DNA of 63,826 bases, counting the filler, from Pseudobdellovibrionaceae bacterium (GTDB lineage Bacteria > Bdellovibrionota > Bdellovibrionia > Bdellovibrionales > UBA1609), in assembly GCA_030591685.1 (NCBI GenBank). It is 5 parts of 5 records of this genome, joined end to end, with 100 filler letters (N's around TTAATTAATTAA, not from the genome) between each part and the next. Parts side by side here need not be neighbours in the genome. Positions count along the whole stretch, not along the records: positions 28,882 to 41,706 come from JAUVAX010000059.1; 4 more parts are not named here. One strand, written 5' to 3'. Each line of letters starts with the position of its first letter. Positions within the stretch are counted from its first letter, which is position 1. Positions 33,001-39,000 of the stretch are shown here, piece after piece. Position numbers: made by a program.

Positions 33001-36000
33001 CCTTGTAAAAATAATGTTACTACCAGGTAGAAAATGAGTAATAGCCTCCAGTCTATGTGCTAAATCAATATCAATAGAACTTGTATCGAATTTCCTTCTA
33101 GTTTGAACTCCATTTTCTGTATTTAATACTGCTTCACGTAAAAACACATTACAGTCGTTAGCTTCATGAACAGCAATTCCACATTCTACTTCAGTGTCGT
33201 AATGATCAGTAATGCCTTTAATTGATGACCTAAGTTCTTGTGCGGCAGCAAAGGCTGCCTTAGTTGGGTGATCACTACCCTCAGTTAATCCAAAATTGGC
33301 ATAAATTTTATCTCCCTCTTGTGACTCTACCTCTCCCCCATGCTTTAGAATTACCTCCCATGCTGTCTGCAGTACTTTTACTCGAACAGGGGTTCTCCCC
33401 ACGTATTGACCATGAAGATTACTGCTATTAATAATATCCATAACTAAACCGGCTAAATTTCTTTTTATAGGAAACACTACATTATTTTCTGCCGCCCATA
33501 ATACAAACGGATGAACCCAGCTCTGCAATTCAGCCTCCAACCTCATATGACTGGATAATAATAGATTTAATTCATTACAACTTGATTGAAGTTTTTCATT
33601 TTTTACTTTGAGTGTTTCGGATAAACAAACACGTTGAAATTCACTTTCATAAAACTTAAAAGCTCTCTCAATTGAGGCAAGTAGTTTCTCAGTGTCCCAA
33701 GGTTTAATAATGTAATCAAATACTTGCGCCTTTCTAATGGATTCAACTATAGAGTTTTCATCACTGTAACCAGTTGTTATAATTCTAATGGCATTTGGAA
33801 CTATTGATTTTGTCAACTCTAAAAATTTAAAACCCTGCATGTGAGGCATTCGCTGATCGCTAATTATAATTGAAGGGTCGATATCCTTGATGTTTTCTAA
33901 GGCCTCAATGGGGCTGCTAAAGCAATGAAGTTTAAAATCATCAGGAAGTAGGCTTTCGAGACCAATATGTTGATGGACTTCGTCATCTACATAAACAATT
34001 CGAAAATTATTCATGCTGACTCCTTTTGTTTTATATTTTGAGGTGGCATAGTTATGTCAAAAGTTGTTCCCTTTCCAAGTATGCTAGTAACCTTAACCTT
34101 GCCACGGTGCCGTTTTTCAATTTCACTCTTGACTATATATAAACCTAAACCAGTTCCGTGTCCAACATCCTTGGTTGTAAAAAATGGGTCAAAAATTTTA
34201 GCGAGAGTGCTTTTATCGATACCTGGGCCATTGTCAGCTATCGAAGTATGAAAATTCCCACTAGAATCCTTACTAGCTGTAATTATTATTTCCCCACCCT
34301 CCTTGTTAATAGAGTCAGCAGCGTTTGTAATTAAGTTCATAATCACTTGGTTGATTCCCACTACAGAGCAATAGACTGTTATTTCTGGGTCAAACCTCCT
34401 TTGTACATTTATACCAACCAAGCTGCTTCTAGCAATTGTTGTAACTGAATTAATAATTTCATTAAACTCGATATTTTTCATGTTTGCTTGGTTGAGTCCT
34501 GTATAGCTTCGTAAGCTTTTTACTATATCCGTTGTTACTTTAGATCCATGAGAAATAGTTTCTAATAATTTGTTGATTTTTGTAAGATTTTGACTATCTT
34601 TTGGGACAGCAAGTGAGATTTGTCGACTCAAACCTATGATGCATGCATTAACATAATTTGTACTATTATTAATTTCATGTGCAATGCCAGCACTAAAAGT
34701 ACCTAAAGATGCAAGCTTTGCGCTTTGAATTAATTCAGCCTGAACCTTCTCTTTATCCTTTAGAGCCTGGGATAACTCATTAGTTCGATCTATAACTTTA
34801 AGCTCCATGGTTTGAAGTAGGTCGTCCCGTTCCCTGTATGTATCACGAATTTTTTGGTTAATTGATAGTGAAAAAATTAAGTACCCAAAAAGCAATCCAA
34901 CAGGGAAAAGACTGGCCATACTGGTAGATCCAGAAAATATTAACATTTCCTTTATAGTTAGTATTGAGAAGATAAGTGCGAATAGCAGTTCAAGAGTTTT
35001 AGAGTATTTTTTAAGGGTAAATATATCTTTAAAGCAACGAAACATTATTGCGGCTAAACACAGTAGTACAGGTAGAAAGGGTAATGATGTGCCAATTTGT
35101 ACTTCATCACCCGATTCACCCACCAGTATGATGATTCCCCCTATTAGAGCCGTAAAAAAAAGTAATTTAATTAAGAACGAACTAATCATTTTTTTTGTAT
35201 AAAAGGAAAACATTAAGGAGAAGAAGCCAAGAAATAGAAAAATATCTGCTGTTTTGTGAATATTTATTAGACTCCATGTAATTCCAAAGACTCCACTCTG
35301 ATTCCATAAAAAATAGAGCGACAAGAAAAGTGCTGATAAAGAAACTGAAGAAGTAGTTAGTATGTTGCTCTCGTTGATGAAAGCTATTAATAGTATCAGA
35401 GCCAAGAAGGCAAGAGAAATGGTAGCAGAAAGATACATCCCGTTTATTGATAAGTTGGCCTCTGACCCTCTGGAAACATACGGTATGCTTGAGAAATTAG
35501 AAAAATATTTAGAGTAACCATCAACAGTCCAAACTATCTTGTCATTTTCGTCCAAAATAAGTAAATCATTGCAGTGTACCTTTATCTGACTAAATACAAA
35601 TTTGGGTTGCAGGGGTTGATTAATGCTTCTTCGAAATTTATTTGAAGTAACAGTTTGAACTCCATATAAAATCCTTGGGAAAATTAAAGTATTATTTTTA
35701 GAGCAATTTAAATCATTAATTTTAGCTTCTAAAGTCAAGTTCAAGTCATTATTTTTAATATCCCAATTTTTTGTAACTTCCCATGGGCCAAGGTCGCTTG
35801 GGTACTGTTGAATCCCCAGCATGGTTTGTGATAATAAAAAAAGAGAAATTACGAACTCCATCATTACACAGTTACTTCCTCAGCGTTTTGGTTGAAATAT
35901 TTATGACCGACCTTTTCAAAGGCATTCTTCAGTACGAGTATGGTATAATCAATATCAGATTCATTAAACTTAGAGGTTAGAGAGAATCTAAACCTACAAC

Positions 36001-39000
36001 GATTTTTTTCAACAACAGGGTACATGACAGGTAACGCATAGACTCCATTATTGAGTAGTTCTTGGAATATTTCTCCCATTTTTTTTTCGTCAAATATATC
36101 GACTGGAACTACAGGTGTTCGGTGAGATGGGTCTATTGGTACTCCAATAGAGATTAATCCAGAAACAAATCTCTCAATATTTGAGAATAATTTTTCTTGA
36201 AGCTCGCCTGATGATAATATTTCTATGGACTTTAATGTCGCAGCCGCTACTCCTGGGGGGAATGATGTAGCAAACATAAGTGATCTAGCATATGCTTTGT
36301 ACCAATGCATTAATGGTGAGGATCCGGTTACATAGGCCCCAAACGTACCAATGCCCTTTGAAAAGAGACCCATTGTAATATCAACCTTATCTTGTACCCC
36401 ATGATACTCACTAGATCCAATGTAAGTTGAGCCAAGTATCCCAAAACAGTGCCCCTGGTCAACCATAAGTCTAGCATTATATTTATCGCAAATTTTGACG
36501 ATTTTATCAAGGCTCCCTATGGTTCCATCCATCGAAAATATTCCTTCGGTAATAATGAGACATCCCGAATATTTTTCTCGATCTCTCTCTAATACTTTCA
36601 CTAAATGATTCATGTTGTTGTGTTTATAAAATCGCCGGGCGGCTCCAGACATTACCATACCGTCTTGAATTGAAGCATGACTTAACTGGTCTGCAATTAT
36701 TAAGTCCTCTCCGCGTGCTAATCCAGCAATGATTCCAATATTAGCGGCATAACCTGATGGAAAAACTAAGGCCTCACTATTTCCATGCATTTCAGCAATT
36801 TTTTCACATAGTTTTTGGTGTAAAATAGTTGTTCCTGAAGTCGGAGCGGTTCCAGTAGACCCCACTCCGAAAAGAGTAGTGGCATCATTTTGGGCTTTAA
36901 TTACCTCAGGGTGAGAGGAGAGTCCTAGGTAGTCGTTTGATCCAAACATCAGAAGCTCATCTCGCGATTTATTTGCCCCACTTTTTTTAACTTTTACCCT
37001 GGCTCCTGCTTGTGAGGTTCGGGCAAAAAAATATGCATACTTATCACTGTCTTTATATTTTTTGTAGAACATTTCAAATTTTTCACATCGGTCTAAAATA
37101 TCAATGTTATTATAGCTAGTAGTTAAAAAATCCCCAAGGGTAAAACCCTCATCACTCAGCTCAGATTCAAATTCATTTGTGTTATCGTTAAAGTTGAGTT
37201 CTAGGGCTTTAGATAGTGCCCCTCCGACAGGAATACGAATATCGATTGTCGATAAAGCTAAGGTTACTTGGTCTTTGTTATGAAAAATCCTTCTTAAAAC
37301 TAATCGACCAAGAGGTATCTCCAAATCTTTGTATAGAAGTTTAGAACTAGAGTAAATCTTGCCAACATCGTCCATTATCTCTACATCATCTTTTAAAACA
37401 CCTAGTAAGCCGGTAATTGAGCAATCTGAAACAGATAGAGTAATCTGCTCACAGTCCTCAACTCCAATTACGAGGATTAATGACTCTTCACTCCGTATTT
37501 TAAAGCGCTTATTTCTTATAAGGTTTGAGATGTTCATTATGACTCCTTTATTGTGTAAGTAATCGGCATTTAATGACAGCTCTTACATTCAAATTGTATA
37601 ATAATATCTGTTATTAGGCCAATATGAATTTATTTAGAGATAGTAACGTTTTAAAGAGTCTGATGCATTACTTAAACCTCGACGAACGTCGACAGGCTTT
37701 GTGATGCACAGGTAAGCTTCAGTATGAGTATTTTTTATTCTTGGGCAGCTATTCAAGCACCACATTGGTTTTATGGCATCTGTAAAGGGATGTTTTTGTG
37801 TCTACGTCGCCGGAGGTGGTGAGTAACACATAGTCACTGTCCGTATCGGCGGCGAGTATAGCTGAGTAGGTTACAGAGCCATCGTCGATAAAAAAAGTAG
37901 CGCCGTAAAACTCCTTAATAGGGGGAGCGAAGGTTTTTTCGAGCTTAGTCTGGGGCCCTAGGCTTGATGGGGGTAAAGTTATGCGTACCTGATTTAACTT
38001 GAGCCCTTTAAGTGTGTAGGTGAGGTGAAGCTGATGAACCCCTGAACCATTTACCTTTTGGCAACTTGTATGGACCTTTAAATGACCAAAAGCAGACAGA
38101 GATATAAGTGTGGTTAAAATTATTAAATAAAAATTCATTTAAAAAGCTCCTTTTTTTAAGCCTTGAAATATGAATATACTAAATTTTTTTGATTTGTATA
38201 TATGAAAAATATTCATAAAAATAAGGTGAGTTTTGGGGTAAAGGGCAAAAAAAATGCTCTAGAGAGGGGGTTTTTATGCACACTTTATTATTTTGCTGGT
38301 GAGCCAATAAATACCTTTACCTAATGTGCCATATATGGCATTATTAAAAGGTGAAAATAATCTCAGCCCCTGAATTTAACAAATGGTACTCAAAGCTCAC
38401 GGGGCGTGAGCAAGCTCAAGTGGATGCACGAATTTCACGTATTGAAGAGAGTGAGTACTTTGGTGATTGGAAGTATTTAGGCGAAGGGTTAGCTGAGTTG
38501 AGGTGGAAGAGTGGCCGCCGAGTTTATTTTACAAAACATGAAGGTCTGATTATTTTATTACTAAATGGAGGATTAAAAAATGCCCAAAAAAAAGACATCA
38601 AAAAAGCGAGACTTCTCCTTCGACGATATGCCGAGTTTAAGGGCAAAGAATAAGGGTGAATTGACCTCTTTTGGAGCTTCCAAAAGAATTAAAAATAAAA
38701 AGTATGTCTCTAAGGCTCTTTGGGAGTGTTTGGTGGCTGATGATACTGATGGCTTTAAAGATATCCTGAGTGCTCATTTGGAGTTAATTAATAAGGATGA
38801 GTTTGCAGAGTCAGCGGGCATTTCTCGTAGAACTTTATTTCGCATGTTATCTGCGGAGGGTAACCCAACGCTAGATAATATTTCTAAGATTATTCATAAA
38901 CTGTGTGCATAGTAGGAGAATTGTGCCAAAAACTAACCTAGGTGTTATTTTGGAGTGGGTGAGTTTTGGGGTATAAAGGGCAAAAAAAATGCTCTAGAGA

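What a model noticed while it worked through the whole genome (the two positions that open the first line are those of the whole stretch)
35864..37537. Cryptic PilZ domain fused to an alpha-oxoamine synthase
g01133 (C57:6983-8656, -; 557 aa) is an alpha-oxoamine synthase (serine palmitoyltransferase / KBL / BioF family, residues 195-545) whose usual short N-terminal helix is replaced by a ~130-residue domain that no sequence library recognises but that folds as a PilZ barrel and keeps the c-di-GMP-binding signature (Arg8-x-x-Arg11 and Asp/Asn38-x-Ser40-x-x-Gly43). It defines a family of ~550-aa PilZ-AOS fusions and predicts that c-di-GMP directly gates an acyl-CoA + amino acid condensation (first step of a sphingoid-base-like or related amino-ketone lipid) in this predator.
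Evidence so far: Tables: Aminotran_1_2 at 195-531 only; best PDB sequence matches of residues 196-557 are serine palmitoyltransferase 3a2b/8guh (E 1e-61) and KBL 3tqx (E 1e-60), starting at chain residue ~46. Pfam at E<=0.1 finds nothing in residues 1-195; of 16 family members 1 touches PilZ at E 0.13. HMMER over 1.84e9 representatives finds 30 relatives of the N-domain, 13 of them 489-570 aa with the same layout. AlphaFold2 on a 16-sequence alignment: pLDDT 87-96 over residues 11-110; Foldseek vs PDB: the 15 best hits are all PilZ domains, most solved with c-di-GMP (YcgR 5y6g E 7e-5, PP4397 3kyf, MrkH 5ejl/5kgo, BcsA 4p00, Alg44 4rt0). Columns: R8 16/16, R11 16/16, D/N38 16/16, S40 16/16, G43 14/16. 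A histi [...]
(Added by a program. Inside this text positions count along the whole contig: they may not be those of the stretch shown here. "Call 12" and the like, gene names such as g00115 and contig names such as C1 are that model's own, and its searches are not shown. The text may have been shortened before it was handed on; [...] marks where a part breaks off. The agent that wrote the report below was given it as the finding of a first reader that could run no searches.)

Follow-up and report, generated by a model that had tools for sequence, protein, structure and literature searches.

The report
Predator-lineage quorum-sensing cassette, PilZ-fused synthase
This enzyme, which carries a domain shaped like a c-di-GMP sensor, appears to make the chemical signal of an undescribed cell-to-cell signalling system in relatives of the predatory bacterium Bdellovibrio, and it is swapped between genomes together with its matching receptor.

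Summary
The fusion is real: residues 5-110 fold as PilZ (Z 11.9 to MrkH) on an intact alpha-oxoamine synthase (AOS). Corrections: the AOS N-terminal helix is kept, Pfam PilZ hits 5 of 32 relatives, and the first Arg of RxxxR is missing, so c-di-GMP binding is unproven. Synthase and the kinase's sensor half share one history; kinase core and cyclase share another. In one same-genus pair the kinase switches from 28% to 88% identity right after TM7. At the same chromosomal slots, relatives carry instead a PhcB-like methyltransferase with a related RxxR PilZ domain, or a PilZ-FeeM acyltransferase. AOS and PhcB types co-occur in 0 genomes (35 vs 100 of 390). Best reading: an autoinducer synthase-receptor-cyclase cassette that works like CqsA/CqsS but is not a member, probably sigma28-driven and possibly c-di-GMP-gated. 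It is unlikely to be sphingolipid synthesis. No step is shown biochemically.

The parts
37561..37586 (-). sigma28 (FliA)-like promoter: GTAAG (37586-37582), 15 nt, CCGATT (37566-37561)
   Evidence: Sequence; B. bacteriovorus attack-phase consensus TTAAG-N16-CCGATA (PMC3627812, passages); CCGA(T/C/A) upstream of 23 of 42 family genes vs 1.7 expected by shuffling and 9 of 239 other ORFs (pattern chosen after viewing 16 upstream regions)
37543..37548 (-). ribosome-binding site AAGGAG before the ATG at 37537
   Evidence: sequence
35864..37537 (-). PilZ-AOS gene, 557 aa, putative autoinducer synthase; its stop overlaps the kinase start by one base
37208..37525 (-). PilZ-fold domain (residues 5-110) with R8xxR11 and D38xS40xxG43; also conserved K66, E73, G77, R78, D99, P103
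37106..37207 (-). linker (about residues 111-144) with conserved E126 and F132
35903..37105 (-). alpha-oxoamine synthase domain (about 145-545); H287, D360, H363, K394, R517 in 99 of 99; type-specific T230, S234, L391, A423, T424
34011..35864 (-). membrane histidine kinase, 617 aa, phospho-acceptor His396
35460..35813 (-). periplasmic all-beta domain of the sensor (about residues 18-135) with two invariant Cys and conserved Trp; family not identified
   Evidence: Atlas gives 7TMR-DISM clusters only as leads at 0.78-0.82
34818..35447 (-). seven-helix membrane domain of the sensor (about 140-349), 7TMR-DISM-like; presumed ligand-binding half
   Evidence: model pLDDT 91.8 with 7 long helices; 7TM folds at Z 12-17; Pfam 7TMR-DISM_7TM in 4 of 33 members, best 2.1e-6; hydropathy finds 6 segments over threshold
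34791..34817 (-). approximate place of the recombination boundary between sensor half and kinase core (about residues 350-358), mapped in relatives and projected onto this gene
   Evidence: G317 vs G332: 4-14 identities per 30 columns before, 24-29 after; sliding-window correlation with AOS drops from about 0.7 to 0.2
34029..34811 (-). kinase core (DHp + HATPase_c)
32809..34014 (-). receiver + coiled coil + class III nucleotidyl-cyclase-like domain, 401 aa; start overlaps the kinase stop by 4 bases. D53, D193, D235, R321 in 28 of 28; Ser at the Lys/Glu base-specificity place and Asp at the Asn place

Best explanation
The gene is the signal synthase of a three-gene chemical-communication cassette of Bdellovibrionota. 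(1) A sigma28-like promoter drives the operon in the motile phase (inferred from motif). (2) The AOS domain condenses an acyl-CoA with an amino acid (or SAM) on PLP to give an alpha-amino-ketone or a derivative (family chemistry; catalytic residues shown intact; substrates unknown). (3) The N-terminal RxxR-type PilZ domain most likely binds a cyclic dinucleotide and tunes output (fold shown; binding inferred, about 55-60%). (4) The hydrophobic product leaves the cell and binds the periplasmic/7TM half of the next gene's kinase (inferred from matched co-transfer). (5) The kinase sets the phosphorylation of the receiver-cyclase, which makes a cyclic mononucleotide (inferred from operon, invariant residues and natural sensor-cyclase fusions; base unknown). 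Strains change signal type by swapping synthase plus sensor half onto a resident kinase core and cyclase, or by replacing the cassette with another PilZ-synthase type.
For: Only these three genes are conserved over 45 loci: 45, 44 and 39; the next real family is in 5. Kinase next to the synthase in 32 of 33 fetched loci; starting from the cyclase, AOS is present in 36 of 44 loci, 5 of the other 8 being cut by contig ends. 33 of 35 synthase genomes have the sensor. Genes overlap by 1 and 4 bases. In 37 complete cassettes AOS and sensor trees have 0 supported conflicts, kinase core and cyclase 1, and pairs across the two blocks 7-10; sensor vs AOS distance rho 0.80, sensor vs the core of its own gene 0.23. 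G317/G332, same genus: core 88%, cyclase 92%, but AOS 47%, sensor 28%, with the switch just after TM7. 0 of 53 pairs with AOS >=70% have sensor <45%. Sensor fused directly to the cyclase in L092 and L094. Same slots in relatives hold a methyltransferase family named as PhcB by JGI in 4 of 120 rows, with a related RxxR PilZ-like domain (hhalign 81.5%, 20 shuffles at most 4.6%), or PilZ-FeeM. AOS and PhcB types overlap in 0 genomes, 9.0 expected. Precedents: CqsA/CqsS and LqsA/LqsS (PMC3376566, passages), Lgs of Bacteroides (PMC13080023, passages).
Against: No product, binding, phosphotransfer, cyclase activity or expression is shown. Synthase and sensor half are adjacent DNA, so linkage explains part of their shared history; only one clean recent swap (G317) and one older one (G207) were found, and the AU test rejects every other domain's topology on every alignment, also within blocks. 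Exceptions: G315 (97% complete) has the synthase and no sensor; 15 genomes have a sensor match and no synthase match, several because of fragmentation; G310's two copies end in a receiver without cyclase. The cyclase is divergent (Pfam best E 0.007) with non-canonical base and transition-state residues. The synthase scores lower on the CqsA/LqsA model (157-227 bits) than on BioF, KBL or SPT models. Kin are not independent, so the exclusivity p (2e-5) overstates; the PhcB name is an automated annotation. The promoter motif was chosen after looking, and its spacer is 15, not 16.
Confidence: 0.7

Rival explanations
1. Same cassette, but the link is inside one cell: the synthase binds the kinase directly, as CqsA binds and inhibits CqsS, or the receptor reads a product that stays in the cell's own membrane. 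It is then a c-di-GMP-to-cNMP relay rather than cell-to-cell signalling.
For: CqsA-CqsS complex that blocks kinase activity without need for catalysis (PMC13729885, abstract and sections 11 and 14); translational coupling of the genes.
Against: The synthase shares history with the periplasmic/membrane half, not with the cytoplasmic kinase core it would have to touch (rho 0.80 vs 0.29); catalytic residues are invariant; sensors occur in genomes without the synthase (0 of 5 tested have it), as expected of listeners to an outside molecule.
Confidence: 0.12
2. One reading: a c-di-GMP-gated serine-palmitoyltransferase-like step that makes a sphingoid base or related membrane lipid; the kinase merely monitors it.
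For: Best PDB sequence matches are SPTs; it is the only AOS found in G000 at E<=1e-10; Bacteriovorax stolpii has an SPT (recalled, not checked).
Against: No SPT cut-off met in 7 of 7 members (at most 338 vs 500-670 bits); no ACP, ligase, reductase or ceramide synthase conserved in 45 loci; no hit in G000 for E. coli YghO, used as a stand-in for bacterial ceramide synthase (the kinship is recalled, and no positive control was run); patchy presence (35 of 390) and replacement by methyltransferase or FeeM cassettes at the same slot; active-site residues vary by type with the sensor.
Confidence: 0.07
3. The PilZ-fold domain has lost c-di-GMP binding with the first Arg, and serves as a protein-contact module or binds another ligand such as 3'3'-cGAMP. 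This concerns only the gating step and can hold together with the best explanation.
For: First Arg of RxxxR present in 2 of 99, and those two have a degenerate second motif; PilZ variants without the arginines are classed as non-functional (PMC12943098, passages); Glu at position 38 in 5 of 32.
Against: R8, R11, S40, G43 and R78 are near-invariant in a domain of 34% median identity; the same RxxR + NxSxxG pattern is kept in the unrelated methyltransferase fusion (113, 116, 107, 110, 113 of 117); G000 has 6 GGDEF and 10 other PilZ matches.
Confidence: 0.35
4. The product is an antagonistic or prey-directed amino-ketone, and the receptor lets the producer detect kin or its own weapon rather than count cells.
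For: AOS-made ligands control antagonism loci in Bacteroides (PMC13080023, passages); type swapping and arrays of spare sensors (3 beside the G198 cassette) fit kin discrimination.
Against: No exporter, tailoring or immunity gene is conserved; a dedicated kinase-cyclase output fits signalling.
Confidence: 0.07
5. Housekeeping AOS (BioF or KBL) with an incidental PilZ domain.
For: Highest model scores are BioF (329-384 bits); sources name many members 8-amino-7-oxononanoate synthase.
Against: Below the BioF (426) and KBL (460, 493) cut-offs in 7 of 7; no bioB or bioD match in the 100%-complete G000, with controls ringing; fixed signalling operon.
Confidence: 0.03

Closest known systems
Vibrio CqsA/CqsS and Legionella LqsA/LqsS/LqsR alpha-hydroxyketone quorum sensing (PMC3376566 passages; PMC3285556 abstract; PMC13729885 abstract and two sections)
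   Same: An AOS-family synthase encoded beside a membrane histidine kinase and a response regulator; signal and receptor specificity matched.
   Different: Synthase far below the CqsA/LqsA model cut-off (157-227 vs 428 bits) and fused to PilZ; sensor has a periplasmic beta-domain plus 7 helices, whereas in CqsS TM6 leads into the kinase; output is a receiver-class III cyclase, not LuxU/LuxO or LqsR.
Ralstonia PhcB/PhcS (PMC10576176, search listing only)
   Same: Relatives carry, at the slot of this cassette, a methyltransferase that JGI names as PhcB, followed by a membrane receptor gene.
   Different: That enzyme has an N-terminal RxxR PilZ-like domain and its receptor is a membrane class III cyclase; it was not aligned with Ralstonia PhcB here. 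The window's own synthase is an AOS.
NAS-PilZ fusions Nas343/Nas354 (PMC4897644, passages)
   Same: PilZ domain fused to a small-molecule acyl synthase, proposed to be c-di-GMP-regulated; a PilZ-FeeM gene fills the pdxJ slot in G212.
   Different: GNAT/FeeM chemistry with C-terminal PilZ; regulation was proposed, not shown; no cognate receptor described in the passages read.
Bacteroides fragilis LgsGA3/TetR (PMC13080023, passages)
   Same: A non-CqsA AOS recruited to make a released ligand for a neighbouring receptor.
   Different: Cytoplasmic TetR receptor; no PilZ, kinase or cyclase in the passages read.
[quoted passage not shown]
   Same: Six-stranded barrel (Z 11.3-11.9, rmsd 3.2-3.8 A over 109-114 residues), second Arg and D/NxSxxG.
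   Different: First Arg of RxxxR replaced by a hydrophobic residue; the next position is an invariant Arg.
Staphylococcal agr specificity groups (recalled, no call)
   Same: Signal synthase and the receptor's sensing half are exchanged as a block, with the boundary inside the kinase gene.
   Different: Peptide signal; no sequence relationship.

Membership tests
PilZ domain, c-di-GMP-binding type | six-stranded PilZ barrel | tested here: met
   Pfam PilZ in 5 of 32 members; Atlas top hits PilZ at 0.92
PilZ domain, c-di-GMP-binding type | RxxxR motif | tested here: not met
   RxxR; Arg at the first place in 2 of 99; motif definition from PMC12943098
PilZ domain, c-di-GMP-binding type | (D/N)xSxxG motif | tested here: met
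   D/N 95, S 98, G 94 of 99
PilZ domain, c-di-GMP-binding type | binds c-di-GMP | not testable with these tools
   needs a binding assay
alpha-oxoamine synthase family | fold-type I PLP domain with His, Asp-x-x-His, Schiff-base Lys and C-terminal Arg | tested here: met
   H287, D360, H363, K394, R517 in 99 of 99; PDB matches; residue roles recalled
CqsA/LqsA autoinducer synthase (NF005526) | score over curated cut-off 428 | tested here: not met
   157-227 bits in 7 of 7
Cqs/Lqs system | synthase gene clustered with a membrane histidine kinase | tested here: met
   32 of 33 loci; 44 of 45
Cqs/Lqs system | CqsS-type sensor whose sixth helix leads into the kinase | tested here: not met
   periplasmic beta-domain plus 7 helices, 7TMR-DISM_7TM hits; CqsS layout from PMC13729885
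Cqs/Lqs system | alpha-hydroxyketone or amino-ketone signal released and sensed | not testable with these tools
   needs chemistry
bacterial serine palmitoyltransferase | score over NF047599/NF047600/NF047603 cut-offs | tested here: not met
   7 of 7 below
bacterial serine palmitoyltransferase | ceramide-pathway genes nearby or in the genome | tested here: inconclusive
   none conserved in 45 loci; genome test used an indirect query without positive control
BioF / KBL | score over cut-off; rest of biotin pathway present | tested here: not met
   no bioB or bioD match
7TMR-DISM receptor | 7TMR-DISM_7TM membrane domain | tested here: inconclusive
   4 of 33 members at E<=0.1, not the window's own; 7-helix model
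7TMR-DISM receptor | DISMED2-type periplasmic domain | tested here: inconclusive
   all-beta model; Atlas lead at 0.78 only; fold search was dominated by the 7TM part
class III nucleotidyl cyclase | two metal-binding Asp and the transition-state Arg | tested here: met
   D193, D235, R321 in 28 of 28; profile hits 2w01 (E 0.003) and CyaB 3r5g (E 0.008); roles recalled
class III nucleotidyl cyclase | Lys (ATP) or Glu (GTP) specificity residue and transition-state Asn | tested here: not met
   S/A/N/H at 231 and Asp at 317 in 28 of 28

The most novel reading that the evidence does not exclude
Bdellovibrionota, for which my searches found no described quorum sensing, carry an interchangeable set of signalling cassettes built on one plan: an RxxR-type PilZ domain gating a signal synthase (AOS, PhcB-like methyltransferase or FeeM-like acyltransferase), a matched membrane receptor, and a class III cyclase output. 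Each genome holds one type, so c-di-GMP state is broadcast as a strain-specific signal and read back as a cyclic nucleotide, perhaps a non-standard one. B. bacteriovorus HD100 carries the PhcB-type synthase (CAE80836.1), so the idea can be tested in the model predator.
Probability: 0.4. Interest if true: 0.92.

Novelty: new variant of a known kind. Interest (0 to 1): 0.82.

Why it matters
Whether Bdellovibrio-like bacteria signal to each other is open: a 2026 review of the model species contains none of the words quorum, autoinducer or density. This cassette names a synthase, receptor and output to test, in cultured strains (Oligoflexus tunisiensis Shr3, Bdellovibrio sp. qaytius, Pseudobdellovibrio sp. 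HCB154), and its counterpart lies in HD100. It would add an independently assembled AOS-based signalling system, a ligand class for a GPCR-shaped bacterial 7TM receptor, natural matched synthase-receptor variants for mapping specificity, and a PilZ subtype with a shortened arginine motif.

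Tried and rejected
Single-protein word search with residues 1-195 found one relative only; genome searches were needed. 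The PilZ alignment had no stretch conserved enough for a locus scan, so the cyclase alignment was used. Foldseek gave no match at E<=0.001 for the sensor; the periplasmic domain was not folded alone, so its family stays open. A complex prediction of synthase with kinase core never entered the queue, so direct binding has no verdict. No RNA holder was listed for the operon. Sigma-70 promoter and terminator scans were at chance level. Earlier-findings look-ups returned nothing. The c-di-GMP capture study in B. bacteriovorus was not held; its protein list could show whether the HD100 RxxR-PilZ methyltransferase binds c-di-GMP. No tree with CqsA or SPT reference sequences was built; classification rests on model scores. 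Literature: 'PilZ'+'oxoamine synthase' gave 1 paper, a sphingolipid review (listing only); searches listed no description of this cassette; subscription journals are largely outside that library. BioF/KBL and SPT readings were rejected as given under rivals. A profile search of the class added only G136 (E 1.2e-5, 250-aa frame, too short for a fusion); it carries the methyltransferase and was left out of the 35.

Full report
Observation. The window joins several contigs; the gene lies on C57, window 28882-41706. ORF 35864-37537 (-) gives 557 aa. Pfam finds Aminotran_1_2 at 195-531 and nothing before it. SPT aligns from residue 159 to chain residue 17, so the AOS is whole and the extra part is about residues 1-144. 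A model of 1-125 on 32 sequences (pLDDT 86.5) matches PilZ domains: Foldseek YcgR E 3.6e-5; VIA-align MrkH Z 11.9, rmsd 3.6 over 112 residues, 14 PilZ-type chains on top, best other fold Z 7.2. Pfam PilZ hits 5 of 32 members. In 99 full-length relatives chosen through the catalytic domain (99 of 120 top hits passed the PilZ-profile threshold; of the rest 8 are fragments, 4 full-length with a weak N-domain score and 9 ordinary short AOS), R8 and R11 are present in all 95 that cover them, S40 in 98, G43 in 94. Alignment with MrkH puts R11 on the second Arg of RxxxR and residue 7 on the first; residue 7 is Arg in 2 of 99. The fold is PilZ; the binding motif is one Arg short.

The enzyme. H287, D360, H363, K394 and R517 are invariant. 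Seven of seven members fall below every curated AOS cut-off: BioF, KBL, three SPTs, ALAS, CqsA/LqsA. It is the only AOS found in G000, which is 100% complete and has no bioB or bioD match. The catalytic domains form a tight group with a score drop (310 to 277 bits) to ordinary AOS.

The operon. Downstream, overlapping by 1 and 4 bases, lie a 617-aa kinase and a 401-aa receiver protein. The N-domain occurs in 35 of 390 genomes of the class. In 33 fetched loci the kinase is adjacent in 32 (31 directly downstream) and the receiver-cyclase in 27. Over 45 loci only these three families recur (45, 44, 39); the next real family, pdxJ, is in 5, and no ACP, ligase, reductase or ceramide synthase recurs. 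Scanning GTDB with the cyclase gave 44 loci; 40 titles name Bdellovibrionota taxa and 4 are uninformative; 36 have the AOS, 5 end at a contig edge, 3 lack it. The sensor model (pLDDT 91.8) has a periplasmic beta-domain and seven helices resembling GPCR and rhodopsin bundles, with Pfam 7TMR-DISM_7TM in 4 of 33. The third gene is a divergent class III cyclase with D193, D235 and R321 in 28 of 28 but unusual residues at the base-specificity and Asn places. In L092 and L094 the sensor is fused straight to this cyclase, which ties input to output.

Synthase and sensor are a matched pair. For 37 complete cassettes (loci with a missing or cut gene left out), AOS and sensor trees share 16 of 19 and 18 of 20 supported splits with 0 supported conflicts; kinase core and cyclase conflict once; across blocks 7-10 splits conflict. 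Log-likelihood losses are 46-185 within blocks and 382-951 across, although the AU test rejects all foreign topologies. Core and cyclase keep genera g26 and g88 together; AOS and sensor both move G317 and G207 elsewhere. G317 and G332 are 88% and 92% identical in core and cyclase but 36%, 47% and 28% in PilZ, AOS and sensor; DNA similarity runs through the cyclase and core and stops inside the kinase gene, protein identity rising from 4-14 to 24-29 per 30 columns at about residue 358. None of 53 pairs with AOS >=70% has a sensor <45%. The window's type (7 of 37) has 9 diagnostic AOS positions, several at motifs around the PLP site, 2 in the periplasmic domain and none in core or cyclase; these seven form one clade, so this is not independent support. 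Adjacency explains part of this, but a boundary inside a gene at the domain edge is what selection for matched ligand and receptor predicts.

Alternative cassettes. Between a radical-SAM gene and an AstE-like gene, G119 and G160 carry this cassette; G138 carries a spare sensor kinase, a methyltransferase and a membrane cyclase. Beside pdxJ, G198 has this cassette plus three spare sensors; G213, G214 and G217 have sensor, desaturase, methyltransferase and membrane cyclase; G212 has sensor, GAF-cyclase and a PilZ-FeeM gene. JGI names the methyltransferase family as the 3-hydroxypalmitic acid methyl ester biosynthesis protein, that is PhcB, in 4 of 120 rows. Its N-domain has RxxR (113 and 116 of 117) and NxSxxG and matches the AOS PilZ profile (81.5%, E 1.1e-5; shuffles at most 4.6%). 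It is in 100 of 390 genomes, followed by a similar membrane-protein gene in the 12 loci viewed, three of which (L108, L114, L133) were scanned and are class III cyclases, and in B. bacteriovorus HD100. It shares no genome with the AOS type: 0 against 9.0 expected, 12 vs 17 within genus g74, and 0 of 34 at E<=1e-5; kinship inflates the significance. The FeeM type was seen once and its spread was not searched.

Regulation. Upstream lies GTAAG-N15-CCGATT, close to the FliA attack-phase consensus TTAAG-N16-CCGATA of B. bacteriovorus (PMC3627812, passages). A CCGA(T/C/A) box precedes 23 of 42 family genes, against 1.7 by shuffling and 9 of 239 other ORFs; the pattern was chosen after viewing 16 regions, and a strict version matches 2 places in G000, one being this gene. 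G000 has 6 GGDEF and 10 PilZ matches.

Mechanism. Shown: folds, intact catalytic residues, fixed operon, matched exchange, exclusive alternatives. Inferred: amino-ketone product, release, binding to the 7TM sensor, phosphotransfer, cyclic-nucleotide output (0.7 together), and c-di-GMP gating (about 0.55-0.6). Rivals are intracellular coupling as in the CqsA-CqsS complex (PMC13729885, abstract and sections 11, 14), lipid synthesis, an antagonistic product, and a non-binding PilZ.

Comparison and novelty. It works like Cqs/Lqs (PMC3376566, passages; PMC3285556, abstract) but fails membership on synthase score and sensor type. AOS recruitment for a released ligand has a second precedent in Bacteroides (PMC13080023, passages) and PilZ-synthase fusion one in Nas343/354 (PMC4897644, passages). 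Ten paper searches listed no account of this cassette, and a 2026 Bdellovibrio review has no occurrence of quorum or autoinducer (PMC13689555, word search); the library lacks most subscription papers. PMC10519070 (passages) added nothing. The agr comparison, residue roles and the B. stolpii SPT are recalled. Verdict: real, a new variant of a known kind, interest 0.82.

Noticed in passing
window 28782-28881, 41707-41806, 51861-51960, 61529-61628: The window is several contigs joined by N spacers; context beyond 28882-41706 is not contiguous with the gene.
   Followed up: yes
window 38351-38912 (+): Gp49/ParE-like toxin gene and HI1420-type antitoxin upstream of the cassette; the cassette region is 34-39% GC against 40% for the genome, which may mark an island.
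   Followed up: no
window 28937-31070 and 39945-40316: A second membrane PAS histidine kinase, a lone receiver and a single-domain cNMP-binding protein lie on the same contig; none recurs in other loci.
   Followed up: partly
L032:7478-9195: In G277 the synthase is split by a frameshift while kinase and cyclase are intact: a non-producing listener or an assembly error.
   Followed up: no
L038:7549-11766, L039:1167-5397: G310 has two cassettes, both with a divergent kinase core and a convergent 230-aa receiver without cyclase, next to a metallo-beta-lactamase-fold gene.
   Followed up: partly
L045:304-4984: G309 has a 324-aa sensor-only gene directly before the synthase and the kinase divergently upstream.
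   Followed up: partly
L060:6882-8546: G315 (97% complete) has the synthase with no sensor match in the genome.
   Followed up: partly
L094:4221-5963, L117:2681-3919: Sensor fused directly to the cyclase with no kinase or receiver; the L094 genome has no PilZ-AOS match.
   Followed up: yes
L114:4170-11727: G164 joins PilZ-methyltransferase, membrane cyclase, the AOS-type kinase, receiver-cyclase and a double cNMP-binding protein: makes one signal type and may listen to the other.
   Followed up: partly
L113:6107-8752: Sensor of this family joined to Hpt and HATPase domains, 881 aa, in G257.
   Followed up: no
P0042, P0045: Proteins with two PilZ-like domains before the same PhcB-like methyltransferase; the second PilZ has RxxR and is hit by the AOS PilZ profile.
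   Followed up: partly
P0133, P0138, P0146, P0151: A divergent group of PilZ-AOS has a full RxxxR but a degenerate second motif.
   Followed up: no
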